DNA of 64,000 nucleotides from Perna viridis (taxonomy: Eukaryota): contig CM074520.1 in the NCBI GenBank assembly GCA_037379345.1, positions 930,001 through 994,000 of the forward strand, given 5' to 3'. Within the stretch, counting starts at the first letter, position 1. The number at the start of each line of letters is the position of its first letter. This document shows positions 21,001 through 57,000 of the stretch, one piece after another. The position numbers were made by a program.

Positions 21001-24000
21001 TACAATTTGTTGATTCGTCTGCCATTTTTTACTTGATTAGTTTTAATTCGGACAAAATTGATTATTTTCTTCGTCACAGTTACCAATTGATTTCAAATGT
21101 ACTGTAGCAAACTTTTTCAATTTGGTAAATCCCTAAGTGTCAATCAATACTTATTGTTTAAAGAAAAGTAACTCAGTAATATATGAGAGAAATTATTTAA
21201 ATATCCCGGTAATGCTAAAGGTAAAACAGAAAATGTCACACTATTTATGTTGTTTTAGTTATTTGTAATCTCAGTCACCATATCGACAAATGTACCACCA
21301 AATAATTATAGAAAAAGACCATTTGGGGTGAAGTGGTAAAGGAAAAAGTATACTACATAAGAAAAAAAGAGAACGGTATTTTAAGCATCACATCGTTCAA
21401 TTAGACTTATAATTGGTTATGATGCAACGCTGGTCAACAGCACCAATGATTAAACAAGTGTTTTGGATAGGTTTTATTTAGTGATTCTTTTCTCGATAAA
21501 ATGATTTCCACATGCTTTCAACACTGTCAACCAAAAGAATATTTACGGTCCATAATTATGTCATCTTTCCTATGCAGGATATTGCATTTTCGACAAAAGA
21601 GAAAATATCACTACTTTTCTCCAAGACAATTCTTTGTTGCAAATTAGTTCTATTTACTAGTGATTAATCTTACCTCATCCTTTATATAAGTTGAATCTAA
21701 AGTATAGACTTTTAAAAACACGAAAATGAAATTTTCAGAGAAAAAAACCATTTAAATTAATCAGTATAAGATTTGGCTTCTTATTTTGATATTTTTATTT
21801 TGGGTACTTCATATTTATATTTTTTTATTTGTATTTCAAAGTTCATCGATGGTTTTGTGACCTCGTCGGCCGATATGAAGTATCTGACTTTCAGAGTTTT
21901 CAATCAGGATAGTTTATGCAATGTCGTCAGTCAGATTGTTTCTCTTTTTTTGCCGCTTTTAACATGGATGAAGAGCGAAGCAAAAAACTCGGTCCACACT
22001 CTTAATGTCTTTAGTGGTATCTAAGATATTGATTTCAGTTTTTGAATTCTCTGCAGTTTTAATCGTTGTGCACTTTGATTTTTCCCTTTGTTGTGTTATG
22101 AATTCGAGGTTTCTATTTTGTCCTAACCATGTAAATGATTTTAAATTACAAACCAATAATTCTCTAACACCAAAATCTTCCTGTTTGCTCTTCCAAAAGT
22201 TTGAACAACTAACTTCAGAAAAGCAGAGGACGCTTACCCTACCGGTACACCTGGTCCATGCTCCCAGTTTTTAGTGGAGTCCGAGTTGCTCATCTACTTT
22301 TGTTACTTTGTATGTATTATTTTAGTTACTTTATGTTCTGTGTTGTGTATGTCTGTTTTCCATGTCTGGTCCTTGTCAATGAATTACATTCTTTTGAATA
22401 TAACCTTGATTCCCTTGATTACTCTTTCAGTCTATGAAATATAATGTCGTTTTAAAAGAAAGCAAAAAGCTGAGTTCCATTTTCAAATGATATTTCTTAA
22501 ACGTTTTAAGAAAACAAACATTTTTGCAAACATATCGACAACCTTACAAATTTAAAAGTTTAAAATGAAAAATTAACAGTATTATTAGTGACAGTGTAAA
22601 ACATTTATAAAAAATCTCTATTCTTCCTTCCCCATTCACATGCCCCATTTTATCCCCCAACTGCTATATACATTTAGTTGAGGTAATGAGAGACTTTGAC
22701 CTAATCATCACGGAACTGTTGTACAGTTAAAATCCTCTCAGTCGACGCCGTCGACAGAGTCCCCTTAACCAGTCGGGGCAATCGACGATCGTCGAAATTA
22801 TCCTGTAAAGTTTGTTCTCTCATTCTTTCAGTACGTAGATTTGTGATACCCGTCATTTCTGAAGGCTCTGGGTCCTTGTTTCTACACCTCATGTACGTTT
22901 TTACTGAACAATAAGTAGCGGCAATGAAAATAGAACCCATGAATACTGTTCCAAGGACAATAGCAATGGCTATACCGACCTTTGATGTATTAGATCCTTC
23001 GAATGGTTCATTGACTGCAATTAAAAATTTTTTTTTAAAGTTGGCAAACATTTGTAATATTTTTCTTGCATTTAAACCCATCTTGTTTTTTTAAATGTAA
23101 ATTCACATTATTTAAAAAAATCAATTAGTTATTTGTACTAAAAATTTTCACTTAGTCGTATACGTTGCAAAAAAGAATTTGGTCCTTTCGGCAAGTATTT
23201 GAAGTGGTCGAATCGCGTTGTAAATGCTATTAAGAATCATCAGAGAGAATATTGATAAAACAAATTGAGCAACTTTATATAAGTGCAGTTACACTTTGAA
23301 TTAGTTATTTGTTAAGCTTTGATGGGAATTAAACTACAGAACTATGTATCATAAACAGATACCCTATACTTTTGAGGAATATGTAAATTTAAATTATATA
23401 TGGTACTATCTATCATAAACAGTTACCTTCTACTTTTGAATAAAAAAAATATATTATATGTAAATTGAATATAATATATGTAAGTTTAATGTAATATGTA
23501 AATTTATGTAATATGGAACTATCATAAACAGTCAGTTTTGAGTATATTGAAATTTAAACTACGTATGGAACTATCCATCAAATAGTTTCCTTCTACCTTT
23601 GAAGTATATGTAAATTTAAACTACTTATGGAACTATCCATCAAATAGTTTCCTTCTACCTTTGAAGTATATGTAAATTTAAACTACTTATGGAACTATCC
23701 ATCATAAACAGTTTCCTTCTACCTTTGAAGGATATGTAAATTTAAACTACGTATGGAACTATCCATCATGAACAGTTTCCTTCTACCTTTGAAGGATATG
23801 TAAATTTAAACTACGTATGAAACTATTCATCAAAAACAGTTACTTTTGAAGTATATGTAAATTTAAACTACTTATGGAACCATCCATCATAAACAGTTTC
23901 ATTCTACCTTTGAAGTATATGCAAATTTAAACTACGTATGGAACTACCCATCAAAAAACAGTTACTTTTGAAGTATATTGAAATTTAAACTACGTATGGA

Positions 24001-54000: not shown

Positions 54001-57000
54001 TATATATTAAATATAAAAAAAAATATGTGTCAAAATTTGCTGGTGATAAATTTGAGGGGCTTATTACTATTGAAAATGTTGAAACCCTATATCATTTATT
54101 TCGTGTAATAAACAGATTGACATTTACTTGAGTCTCACGCATTCAACATTTCAAAATTTATTGACACAGAGTTATTGATGACACTTCAACAATAGTAACA
54201 GAGTTGAAATTGTAAGATATTGTCATTGTGTACCTTCTGTGTTAAAATTACACCACGTTTAATTGGATTCTGATTTTGATATTCTGTACCTTCCTTTCTG
54301 TTTAGCTTTATTAAATCTACTGTGTCATTGCATTGTTCCTTTATATCTTCGGTACTTGGAACAGTAAGCACTCTATATAATAAGGTCATATACTAATTAA
54401 GCAAGATACACCAATACAAGGAAGTATGTATCGACAATATTAAAATATTGTAAAACAGAGAAAGTAAATGACAAAGTAAAATTAATAACGTGGCTTAGGA
54501 ATATCAACAGGATATGCCTGTTATATAAATGAAATTGGGAATTTATGAAAGGATAATAAACGAAAACAGTTACCTTGATTACTCTTTACTTAACATTTTT
54601 GCTCAATTTTATAAAAAATATAGTAGGGGTAAGGTGTCCCACCGGACCTAACGTGTTCACCCAGAGGTCAAATATAAACTTGAAGCGTACTAGTTTTCTT
54701 CCCCAGATTTTCGTAGTTGCCATGACAACAAATATGACTTTGATGCATCATCATATGTACATCGTATACTAGACTTATCCCCCGTGCGTATAGCGTTAAC
54801 AAATGCTACCAGCTCGTTATGATAACAATCATTTCTATCAAAGATGTATTCAACTTCTTCATTGGGATTGCTCGACTTATAATGACGCACACGAAGAATA
54901 CTGACATCATCAACAGGTTTGGTCATCACAAGCTGTAATCCATCGCACTGAATTTCTATGGAAATATCATGCTTATTTCCTGGAATGGCATGAGTATGTA
55001 AGATTGACCCTAATGCACCGTTAGAAAACTTGAAATGACTCATGGTCACTCTTGGGAATTTCTGTTGCGAGGGAATATCATTCTCGCCATCATGCGAGAA
55101 GTATGACAATTTTCCTGCACCGGAAGAATCGTCGTCTCTTAGTACTATGGTGCTGATTGATCGATGGTCGACATCACCGACTATATATCGAGCTAAATCG
55201 ATGACGTGTGTTGCTTGGTATATCATTGGCCCACCACTATACATAAGGTCATACAAGAGTTTGTTTCCACCCAAAGTGTAGGCATAGGAGAATTTAGCAT
55301 TGTAAGCCATTATTTTATGTCCATGTGATTCAATAATCTGTTTCATTTTATCCACTGCTGCGTGATACCTGAAATATACAGATTAGTCTTTTGGTTTTTT
55401 AAGGGGACTTTTGAATTTTTCTAGGATATAAAGAGCAACACATCGAAGGACGGAAATTGAACTATCCGTCCAGGGCATTTCTACCATCCTCGTGTTTGAT
55501 TCCTTAATCTGTAAAGTAAAGTAATTCCTGTCTTGCAATCAAAAGGTCAGTTACTGACACCTGTGTCAAAAAGGATATTTTATTGTATAAATGGGTGCAT
55601 GATTTATCTTGGAGATTATTGTCCTTTTGGTATTGATAAAAGATGATAACATATACTATTCAGTGACTAACAATAAACCTAAAATTGTAAGCGCAACTTT
55701 TGTATTAGGATTTCTGAATGATGAATTTAAACTGAGCCCTATGTAATTTTTTTACCAAAAATTATCACTTAATTTTCCATTTTAATTTAACAAAATGCAA
55801 AGTAAGCAAAATTTCCTTTATAAATTATTACAGTTAGGTTCGATTTTCTCTAAACTTCTTAATAAAACTGAAGTGACTTTATTTCGTAATCGTGTGGCAA
55901 AATTCCAGATCTTTTCTCTTTTTTTAATCGAAGCTCCAATTTAAAAATATGTAAATTGTTAATAGGTTTTGTACAGCTGTTGGAGTAGGTATCCTTTGTC
56001 ATAGATCTAATACATCAAAACAATTTAGCAATTTTACATAATCTTCAAGTTGAAAAATGCATATTTGCACAATTAGCATTAAAGATAAAAGAGGGGGTCA
56101 CACCTTCGGTCTACAGCGTGACTGCAGACTGAAGTACTACTGAAATGATAATGTATGCATATTACGCCAATACATACCAAAGTGTTTGTAAACAACACAT
56201 TCATTCGAGTACTCGACATTTTGTAAACAGCTTAAGACATGTATTATATGTGACATTTTGTAAACAACCAAGAACTTCCATAATAAACATGTATACAGTG
56301 TAGTTTTATCCAAGGGATGGAACAATTTACCTGAACATGTAGCCGACAGATACAACCACATTGGTTTCTTTTATAGCATTTTTCATTTCTGTTGCATACA
56401 TTTCAAATTCTTCTGGTGGGATAACTGACAACGGTTTCTCCACGAACGTGTGAATACCAGCCTTAACGAACTGTAACTCCATATCATGATTGTTGAGGAG
56501 ACATCCACGGTATGCTGGAGGTGAACCTATAAACACAGCATCAGGCTTTAACTCTAGCAATTGTCTGAAATTGGCAAACACTCTACAGTTTTTATACAAA
56601 CTCCTCACTTCATCATTTGCCAGTTTTTCCTCCAATACTTTTTGAGCGAGATCTGTTTTTGGATCTACGATAGCGACTACATCTATCCCTCCAATTTTCT
56701 CAAGCCGTGTAGCGTGTGCCCAGGGTTTATTTTTACCAAAATGGATACCACCTGCCCCTACAAAACCGATCTTCAAAGTGTTCTCACTCATGTCAGCTGA
56801 GTTAGACACATCTGTAAATAAGACAGTCACAATAGAAACATCTGTATATAGGACAGTTACGATAGATACACCTGTTAATAAGACAGTCACATTAGATACA
56901 TCTGTAAATAAGACAATCACGATGGATATCTGTAAATAAAAGTTGTAACAGATACATATGTAAATAAGACTGTCACAATAGAAATAAGTTTATCTACAAC

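What the first reader, a model, noticed from the sequence alone, without database searches (positions are those of the whole stretch)
23325..56984. Recurrent pattern: three of six genes have minisatellites seeded exactly on a splice junction
Seen: three arrays with unrelated sequences (23325-24115, 40278-41104, 56802-56984) each start inside an exon, cross the junction and extend only into the intron, leaving the ORF intact. Junctions occupy a tiny fraction of the window, yet about three of eight multi-copy arrays sit on them. Inference: this suggests a junction-biased mutational process (e.g. transcription- or splicing-linked breaks with iterative repair). It would supply alternative splice sites and raw material for exon or intron gain. 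This is my best candidate for an undescribed system here, though splice-site-overlapping repeats may already be reported in other animals.
[Added by the scan's program, not by the reader: the finding's places include an assembly gap (unread letters, written N; its length is only estimated) at 28834 to 28980. Whether the letters on both sides are continuous or in frame is not known: test that first.]
Basis: partly seen in the sequence, partly recalled or inferred. Interest (0 to 1): 0.7.

Follow-up and report, generated by a model that had tools for sequence, protein, structure and literature searches.

The report
Minisatellites seeded on splice donor sites
Two mollusc genes carry tandem repeats that copy an exon end and its splice donor many times into the intron; this structure is already known from amphioxus and human genes, and one window cannot show it is more than coincidence.

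Summary
All three arrays exist at the stated coordinates.

Two of them sit on well-supported donor junctions:
- Array 1 (23340-24115, minus strand): the unit is the last 33 nt of a CUB exon of gene B plus 31 nt of intron.
- Array 2 (40277-41096, plus strand): the unit is the last 58 nt of a CUB exon of gene C plus GTAGGT.

The junctions are supported by paralogous exons, reading frame, AG/GT checks and homologous proteins that read straight across.

Array 3 (56803-56982) lies 11 nt upstream of the start codon of an oxidoreductase gene. Its "junction" is only a guessed 5'UTR acceptor, which scores in the 72nd percentile of all AG sites.

If a repeat can only sit on a junction when its founding unit spanned one, 0.2-0.7 such arrays are expected here. 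P(>=2) is 0.016-0.15, which is suggestive but post hoc.

The most similar units lie inside the arrays, not next to the junction. This argues against iterative repair at the junction.

The anatomy is already published: amphioxus "mirages" (PMC3087553) and the human F7, IFI6, CBS, LMNB2 and PDGF minisatellites (PMC1557585).

Verdict: a new member of a known kind, of modest interest.

The parts
23340..24115 (-). Array 1. About 12 units of roughly 64 nt. The founding unit is the last 33 nt of gene B's CUB exon plus 31 nt of intron. Distal units (23340-23556) are degenerate and interrupted by an AT-rich stretch.
   Evidence: TRF; unit alignments.
24083..24244 (-). Gene B exon coding the last third of its CUB domain. 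It ends ...EFKFTYTSKVE G|GTAACT, with the donor GT at 24082-24081.
   Evidence: ORF; donor; AG/GT check; P0009 residues 32-70 align to 24203-24084.
22701..23014 (-). Gene B last exon, coding the transmembrane segment and cytoplasmic tail. Its acceptor ttgcag|TC joins in frame (G+TC = Val).
   Evidence: Homologues P0009 and P0010 read ...YVE-V-EEPF....
40277..41096 (+). Array 2. 13 units of 64 nt. The founding unit is the last 58 nt of gene C exon 11 plus GTAGGT(G). Units 5-7 and 8-10 form an interior 3-unit duplicated block.
   Evidence: TRF; units; identity matrix.
40211..40338 (+). Gene C exon 11, the middle third of CUB domain 4. It ends ...DKVQLFK G|GTAGGT.
   Evidence: P0001 residues 450-493 map here.
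41440..41592 (+). Gene C exon 12, the last third of CUB domain 4. It is joined directly to exon 11 in the homologue (…LYKG|PCSSYP…).
   Evidence: Pfam CUB at E = 9.3e-7.
56803..56982 (-). Array 3. Six units of about 30 nt, each with TCTTATTTACAG|ATG. It lies 11 nt 5' of gene E's start codon, in the 5'UTR, a putative 5'UTR intron, or the promoter.
56331..56791 (-). Gene E first coding exon (GFO/IDH/MocA Rossmann domain), with ATG at 56791-56789.
   Evidence: Pfam; Pecten maximus homologue P0005 begins at the same Met; donor checked.
28834..28980 (.). Assembly gap of 147 N between the head-to-head genes B and C. It is not part of any of the three arrays.

Best explanation
Arrays 1 and 2 are junction-spanning minisatellites of the 'mirage' type.

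Proposed history:
1. An ordinary tandem duplication of about 64 nt happened to include the 3' end of an exon and its donor site.
2. The duplicate was tolerated because the spliceosome keeps using the first, authentic donor. Every further copy therefore lies in the intron and evolves neutrally.
3. The array then grew by unequal exchange inside itself. Each intron went from roughly 300-350 nt to about 1100 nt.

Array 3 is an independent 30-nt minisatellite in the 5' flank or 5'UTR of another gene. Whether it touches a splice acceptor is unknown.

What is shown and what is inferred:
- Shown: the anatomy, the junction positions, the exon-to-array direction of copying, and the interior homogenisation.
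- Inferred: the slippage or unequal-exchange origin, use of the first donor in this species, and that the co-occurrence of two or three such arrays in one window is chance plus tolerance rather than a junction-targeted process.
For: Junction positions:
- 5 of 5 exons that end at the same place in a CUB domain (four in gene C, one in gene B) end in phase 1 at G|GTA.
- All 16 modelled introns have GT...AG.
- P0001 reads across junction 2. P0009 and P0010 read across junction 1.

Direction of copying (exon to array):
- The copied segments code conserved CUB motifs.
- 11 of 11 downstream array-2 units that cover the codon keep Tyr (TAT/TAC), as does the homologue P0001 (QLYKG). The live exon now has TTT (Phe). 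The array therefore predates that substitution.

Ordinary minisatellite dynamics:
- The highest unit identities are interior. Array 2: units 5/8 and 6/9 at 95%, 4/12 at 94%, and a 192-nt block at 92%. Array 1: units 6-9 at 95-98%.
- Identity to the exon copy is 80-92% with no gradient.

Tolerance:
- Read-through past either donor meets a stop after about 10 codons, so only first-donor use gives the protein seen in the homologues.
- First-donor use at a reiterated donor was shown experimentally for human F7 IVS7 (PMC1557585, abstract and Introduction read).

Rarity elsewhere in the window:
- Only 2 of 32 well-defined junction queries have junction copies in their own intron. Scores are 27 and 30, against a control maximum of 13 or less.
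- tblastn of P0001 found extra exon-like copies only within 40343-41103.
Against: - Under the founding-unit null, two junction-seeded arrays among 9 are nominally more than expected (expected 0.2-0.5; P(>=2) = 0.016-0.075). If array 3 counted, P would be 0.0008-0.009.
- Both confirmed cases are donor-side, both are in neighbouring CUB-domain genes, and both have 64-nt units. I cannot explain this coincidence.
- The amphioxus literature also notes recurrence across several genes and calls the generating mechanism unclear (PMC3087553 section 16).
- No transcript of this species was available, so use of the first donor rests on homologous proteins. One of them (P0001) comes from an unnamed record.
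Confidence: 0.62

Rival explanations
1. One reading: a junction-biased mutational process. Breaks or template switching linked to transcription or splicing, or to the boundary between conserved exon and highly polymorphic intron, would seed minisatellites preferentially at splice junctions.
For: - Nominal excess under the founding-unit null: P(>=2) = 0.016-0.15.
- Recurrent 'mirages' in several amphioxus genes, with the mechanism stated to be unclear (PMC3087553 section 16; PMC3902484 passage).
Against: - Only 2 of 32 well-defined junctions are affected.
- The third case is unverified.
- There is no identity gradient from the junction, and the most recent amplification is interior.
- The pattern was selected post hoc from a single window.
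- The other 6 multi-copy arrays lie 190 nt or more from any exon candidate, or are intergenic.
Confidence: 0.17
2. Selected function: the reiterated donor-like or exon-like units are kept because they help splicing or expression. For example, they might recruit U1 or act as intronic enhancers, and array 3 might act as a promoter or 5'UTR regulator.
For: - 9 of 12 downstream array-2 units keep an A[AG]G|GT site, and 2 are identical to the authentic donor.
- Tandem repeats associated with splicing are catalogued in humans (PMC10078293; seen only as abstract text in the search listing).
Against: - In array 1, 5 of 7 downstream sites matched by the pattern have lost GT and now read GA.
- Units are 73-98% identical, with decayed edges, as expected for neutral turnover.
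- No conservation data from another species could be obtained.
Confidence: 0.08
3. Assembly artefact: the arrays, or their copy numbers, are products of mis-assembly.
For: - The window contains an assembly gap.
- Long minisatellites are error-prone in assemblies (general knowledge).
Against: - Units are diverged from one another (73-98%) with structured subfamilies. This is not what collapsed or duplicated reads produce.
- The host exons are intact and in frame.
- The gap is 4.7 kb or more from any of the arrays.
Confidence: 0.03

Closest known systems
[quoted passage not shown] Sources: PMC3087553 (section 16 read) and PMC3902484 (one passage read). The original Adh3 paper is known to me only as their reference.
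   Same: - Tandem units that each contain an exon end plus the adjacent splice signal.
- Both 5' and 3' boundaries can be affected.
- Unit sizes of 10-160 bp bracket those seen here (30 and 64 nt).
- Regular splicing is reported undisturbed.
- The interior is homogenised while edge units diverge, as.
- The intron is enlarged.
   Different: - Different phylum: a bivalve-like mollusc rather than a cephalochordate.
- Length polymorphism and somatic instability, reported for amphioxus, could not be tested here.
- Units here are older and more diverged (73-98%) than the 81-100% reported for BflGb6.
- No new intron position is created here.
Human intronic VNTRs whose first monomer spans the exon-intron boundary: F7 IVS7 (37 bp), IFI6/6-16 intron 2, CBS IVS13, LMNB2 (100 bp) and PDGF intron 4 (81 bp). 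Source: PMC1557585 (abstract and Introduction read).
   Same: - The authentic donor is followed by a series of reiterated pseudo-donors in the intron.
- The most upstream site is the one used in F7, LMNB2 and PDGF.
- Copy numbers of 5-26 are similar to the roughly 12-13 seen here.
   Different: - The F7 unit holds only 4 nt of exon. Here 33 and 58 nt of exon are copied.
- In IFI6 and CBS some pseudo-sites are used. Use here is untested.
- The 5'-to-3' scanning rule was shown in mammalian cells, not in molluscs.
Intron gain or intron sliding by tandem duplication of a segment containing an AG|GT proto-splice site. Sources: PMC2891723 (abstract read) and PMC2812944 (passages read). Zhuo et al. 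2007 was seen only as an entry in a reference list.
   Same: - A tandem duplication includes splice signals.
- The duplicated exon sequence becomes intronic.
   Different: - Here the introns are at ancestral positions shared by paralogous CUB exons and by homologues.
- No intron was created or moved. An existing intron was lengthened.

Membership tests
Junction-spanning minisatellite ('mirage' / F7-IVS7 type) | Head-to-tail array of at least 3 similar units | tested here: met
   Array 1 has about 12 units, array 2 has 13 and array 3 has 6.
Junction-spanning minisatellite ('mirage' / F7-IVS7 type) | The first monomer contains the exon end and the authentic splice site | tested here: met
   Met for arrays 1 and 2. 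For array 3 the result is inconclusive: the acceptor is hypothetical and scores in the 72nd percentile of AG sites.
Junction-spanning minisatellite ('mirage' / F7-IVS7 type) | The remaining monomers lie only in the intron and the coding frame is intact | tested here: met
   The exon translations match homologues up to the junction and resume at the next exon. The arrays end 343 nt (array 2) and about 325 nt (array 1) before the next acceptor.
Junction-spanning minisatellite ('mirage' / F7-IVS7 type) | The mRNA is spliced at the authentic (first) site | tested here: inconclusive
   Homologous proteins P0001, P0009 and P0010 read across without an insertion. No transcript of this species was available.
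Junction-spanning minisatellite ('mirage' / F7-IVS7 type) | Copy-number polymorphism or instability | not testable with these tools
   Only one haplotype of one assembly is at hand.
Intron gain by tandem duplication of a proto-splice site | The intron is at a novel position absent from paralogues or orthologues | tested here: not met
   The same intron position and phase occur in 5 of 5 exons ending at that place in a CUB domain and agree with the exon mapping of P0001.
   Window only: 2 confirmed arrays against 0.2-0.7 expected, P = 0.016-0.15, post hoc. A genome-wide test was not possible because no genome was available.
   There is no gradient, and the closest unit pairs are interior.

The most novel reading that the evidence does not exclude
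Junction-spanning minisatellites may be a genome-wide, over-represented class in bivalves, as has been suspected for amphioxus.

They would be generated preferentially where a conserved exon meets a highly polymorphic intron. One speculative route is template switching or aberrant repair at the edge of heteroduplex between very divergent haplotypes. This is my own inference and is not tested.

Such a process would be a steady source of intron growth and of reiterated splice sites in highly heterozygous marine invertebrates.
Probability: 0.15. Interest if true: 0.6.

Novelty: new member of a known kind. Interest (0 to 1): 0.3.

Why it matters
If it is only what the evidence shows, this is a clear mollusc example of a structure known from amphioxus and humans. 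It is useful mainly to annotators. Reiterated donors and exon-like intron copies can mislead gene predictors. About 70% of two introns here is exon-derived repeat.

It would matter more if a genome-wide test showed real enrichment at junctions. That would point to a mutational link between exon boundaries and minisatellite birth. It would also help explain intron expansion and the 'mirage' phenomenon, whose mechanism the amphioxus literature calls unclear.

Tried and rejected
- **Gene B homologue search.** The search for homologous proteins on gene B's last exon, set to longer proteins, found nothing. The exhaustive representative search then gave 5 hits, of which P0009 and P0010 span the junction.
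- **Short duplications at other junctions.** Of 32 junction queries, 2 were strongly positive. One was marginal (10.0 against a control maximum of 9.0) and I treat it as noise.
- **Arrays as dispersed elements or relatives of each other.** Rejected: 0 of 77 hits fall outside the query's own array.
- **Derivation of the other six arrays from a nearby exon.**
  - Three lie in RhoGAP-gene introns about 190-220 nt from the nearest exon candidate (731-812, 8594-9135, 14176-14328).
  - Three lie outside coding genes (20247, 29149-30090, 43161).
- **Acceptor scoring for array 3.** The matrix was built from only 18 sites. It gave the 72nd percentile for the proximal site. The best unit reached 95, as did gene F's site just before its ATG. 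This is too weak to count as a junction.
- **First exons of genes B and C.** tblastn did not find their signal-peptide exons.
- **Rfam.** 0 matches.
- **Pfam on single exon pieces.** Often negative for CUB thirds. CUB identity rests on two exon hits plus P0001's precomputed domains.
- **Literature.** One search failed because the phrase was too long. I repeated it with shorter terms.
- **Exon joining.** The spliced models were searched exon by exon. The joined coding sequence was never built, translated or searched.
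Full report
**What the window is**

The DNA is AT-rich (GC about 0.28-0.37) and carries intron-rich genes. 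The only named protein relatives found are from the scallop Pecten maximus, at 48-50% identity. I take it for a bivalve-like mollusc, not human.

I recognise six genes.
- **A** (plus strand, about 280-17766): RhoGAP. Pfam hits on three exons, with a further exon near 9340-9400.
- **B** (minus strand): one CUB domain plus a transmembrane tail.
- **C** (plus strand): four CUB domains, each split into three exons, plus a transmembrane exon.
- **D** (minus strand): a small leucine-rich-repeat gene (weak hits).
- **E** (minus strand) and **F** (plus strand): head-to-head paralogues of a GFO/IDH/MocA-type oxidoreductase.

Spliced models were searched exon by exon. I left out the step of joining the exons.

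**The gap**

The 147 N at 28834-28980 lie in the region between the 5' ends of the divergent genes B and C. No ORF with coding signal crosses the gap.
- The left flank holds a 66-nt piece of a dispersed repeat.
- The right flank runs into a 20-nt array.
- Nothing continues across the gap.

Continuity cannot be shown, and reading frame is not an issue because nothing coding is seen there. The gap is 4.7 kb from array 1, 11.3 kb from array 2 and 27.8 kb from array 3. It does not bear on them. The unlocated first exons of B and C could be in or near it.

**Checking the observation**

TRF finds 28 rows, which reduce to 9 arrays of about 3.7 or more copies plus 8 short ones. The three named arrays are there.

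*Array 2.*
- It has 13 units of 64 nt.
- Unit 1 is the last 58 nt of gene C exon 11 plus GTAGGT(G).
- The junction at 40338|40339 is secure.
  - Three other gene C exons, and one gene B exon, that end at the same place in a CUB domain also end there in phase 1, at G|GTA.
  - All 16 modelled introns have GT...AG.
  - A 646-aa homologue, P0001 (75% identical over the last exon, from a 2273-nt contig), reads ...DKVQLYKG|PCSSYPSLG... with no insertion.
  - P0001 maps exon by exon onto 13 window exons.

*Array 1.*
- It lies on the minus strand and has about 12 units.
- Unit 1 is the last 33 nt of gene B's third CUB exon (...EFKFTYTSKVE) plus 31 nt of intron.
- The donor G|GTAACT at 24083|24082 and the acceptor ttgcag|TC at 23015|23014 join in frame.
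- Two relatives, P0009 and P0010, read ...SYVE-V-EEPF... across this point.
- P0009 residues 32-70 align to 24203-24084, that is, up to the last full codon of the exon.

*Array 3.*
- It has six 30-nt units on the minus strand and ends 11 nt upstream of gene E's ATG.
- The scallop homologues (MSQTMLKIGF...) and paralogue F (MQSNSMKIGF...) start at the same place. The array is therefore outside the coding sequence.
- Every unit carries TCTTATTTACAG|ATG, which resembles a 3' splice site.
- A crude matrix built from 18 window acceptors puts the proximal site only in the 72nd percentile of all AG sites. True acceptors had a leave-one-out median near the 91st percentile.
- Without transcripts it cannot be called a junction.

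**Is it more than chance?**

An array can sit on a junction only if its founding unit spanned that junction. The relevant chance is therefore (unit length - 1) times junction density.

I estimate about 55-65 junctions in the window.
- 32 are well defined.
- About 19 are in gene A.
- At least 4 are in gene D.
- The unlocated first exons add a few more.

With that density the expected number is 0.3-0.4 for the 9 multi-copy arrays, and the range is 0.2-0.7 across all the assumptions I tried. P(>=2) is 0.016-0.15. P(>=3) is 0.0008-0.03.

Dropping whole arrays at random would give 1.8-3.4 arrays touching a junction. I regard that null as unrealistic.

Two confirmed cases are thus nominally somewhat more than expected. 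The pattern was noticed first and tested afterwards, in one window, so I do not treat it as established.

A direct scan of the 32 well-defined junctions found junction-derived copies in the adjoining intron only at these two. Scores were 27 and 30 against control maxima of 13 or less, with one marginal 10.0 against 9.0.

**What the arrays tell about their own history**

*Direction of copying.*
- The copied pieces encode conserved CUB motifs.
- In array 2, 11 of 11 downstream units that cover the codon keep a Tyr codon, as in the homologue (QLYKG). The live exon has since changed to Phe.
- The array was therefore copied from an older version of the exon.

*Mode of growth.*
- Identity to the exon copy is 80-92% in both arrays, with no gradient.
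- The closest pairs are interior.
  - Array 2: units 5/8 and 6/9 at 95%, 4/12 at 94%, and a 192-nt three-unit block duplicated at 92%.
  - Array 1: units 6-9 at 95-98%.
- This is the usual picture of unequal exchange within a minisatellite, with diverged edges. The amphioxus paper describes the same thing (PMC3087553, section 16).
- It is not what repeated repair at the junction would leave.

*Pseudo-sites.*
- In array 2, 9 of 12 downstream units keep A[AG]G|GT. Two are identical to the authentic AAG|GTAGGT, and most of the rest have T at position +3.
- In array 1, 5 of 7 downstream sites matched by the pattern have GA instead of GT.
- The donor matrix used for these scores included the two authentic donors among its 16 training sites.

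*Consequences.*
- Reading past either authentic donor meets a stop after about 10 codons. Use of any pseudo-donor would give a truncated product.
- The arrays make up about 743 of 1068 nt of one intron and 758 of 1101 nt of the other. They have roughly tripled both introns.

**Mechanism I think most likely**

1. A single slippage or unequal-exchange duplication happened to include exon end plus donor. In array 2, GGTG precedes both the first and the second unit. This is compatible with such an event but not diagnostic.
2. The duplicate was tolerated because the first donor is the one used. This was shown experimentally for the analogous human F7 intron 7 repeat (PMC1557585). Here it is inferred from the homologues.
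3. Neutral expansion and turnover then followed inside the intron.

Array 3 is an independent minisatellite in the 5' flank of gene E.

**Comparison with what is known**

The anatomy is in print.
- PMC3087553 (section 16) and PMC3902484 describe amphioxus 'mirages' in Adh3, troponin C, globins and PGBD5. These occur at both 5' and 3' boundaries, splicing is undisturbed, and the mechanism is called unclear.

Intron gain by tandem duplication (PMC2891723 abstract; PMC2812944 passages) is related but not what happened here. The intron positions are ancestral.

I found no bivalve report in two searches.
- One search returned 4 papers, none on this subject by title or abstract.
- One search returned 7 papers, and the two relevant ones concern amphioxus.

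This is a limited search of an open-access library.

**Left open**

No eukaryotic genome, transcriptome or orthologous locus could be reached. As a result:
- the genome-wide test was not done;
- the 5'UTR of gene E is undefined;
- polymorphism was not examined;
- the age of the arrays in related species is unknown.

**Verdict**

The structure is a new, mollusc member of a known kind. The proposed junction-biased process is neither shown nor excluded, and the internal structure of the arrays speaks against its 'iterative repair' form.

Noticed in passing
window 23340-24115 and 40277-41096: Both confirmed junction arrays have the same unit length (64 nt). Both sit on phase-1 donors of CUB-domain exons, in two neighbouring head-to-head genes. 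Their sequences are nevertheless unrelated. I have no explanation for this coincidence.
   Followed up: partly
window 3086-3423, 19100-19600, 22217-22426, 24729-24847, 26887-26955, 28577-28642, 32578-32731, 36504-36728, 53510-53578: A dispersed repeat of up to about 340 nt is found at 9 places, at 71-94% identity to the query copy. Several copies lie inside introns of genes B and C. It is probably a SINE- or MITE-like element and was not classified.
   Followed up: partly
window 54690-56791 (minus) and 59847-61198 (plus): Two paralogous GFO/IDH/MocA-type oxidoreductase genes ('UNK4.17-like' in Pecten maximus) lie head to head, about 3 kb apart. Their single coding intron is at the same position and phase, but is 962 nt in one and 212 nt in the other.
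   Followed up: partly
window 32784-42612: Gene C encodes four CUB domains. Each is split into three exons with the same phase pattern (2, 1, 1). This is a regular exon-shuffling layout that matches a 646-aa homologue exon for exon.
   Followed up: yes
window 29149-30090: A 20-nt array of about 46 copies, with 39- and 59-nt higher-order periods, begins roughly 170 nt after the assembly gap, in the B-C intergenic region.
   Followed up: no
window 57068-57190: An A23 run is followed by a near-perfect inverted repeat (…ctatcaaatatgcagc…gctgcatattagatag…) in the spacer between genes E and F. It may be an inserted element.
   Followed up: no
window 52900-53310: A stretch with long open frames on both strands and relatively high coding score. 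It has no Pfam match and its nature is unknown.
   Followed up: partly
window 37452-37528: A perfect 35-nt x 2.2 duplication lies 65 nt downstream of a gene C donor (37387). It is close to a junction but not on it.
   Followed up: no
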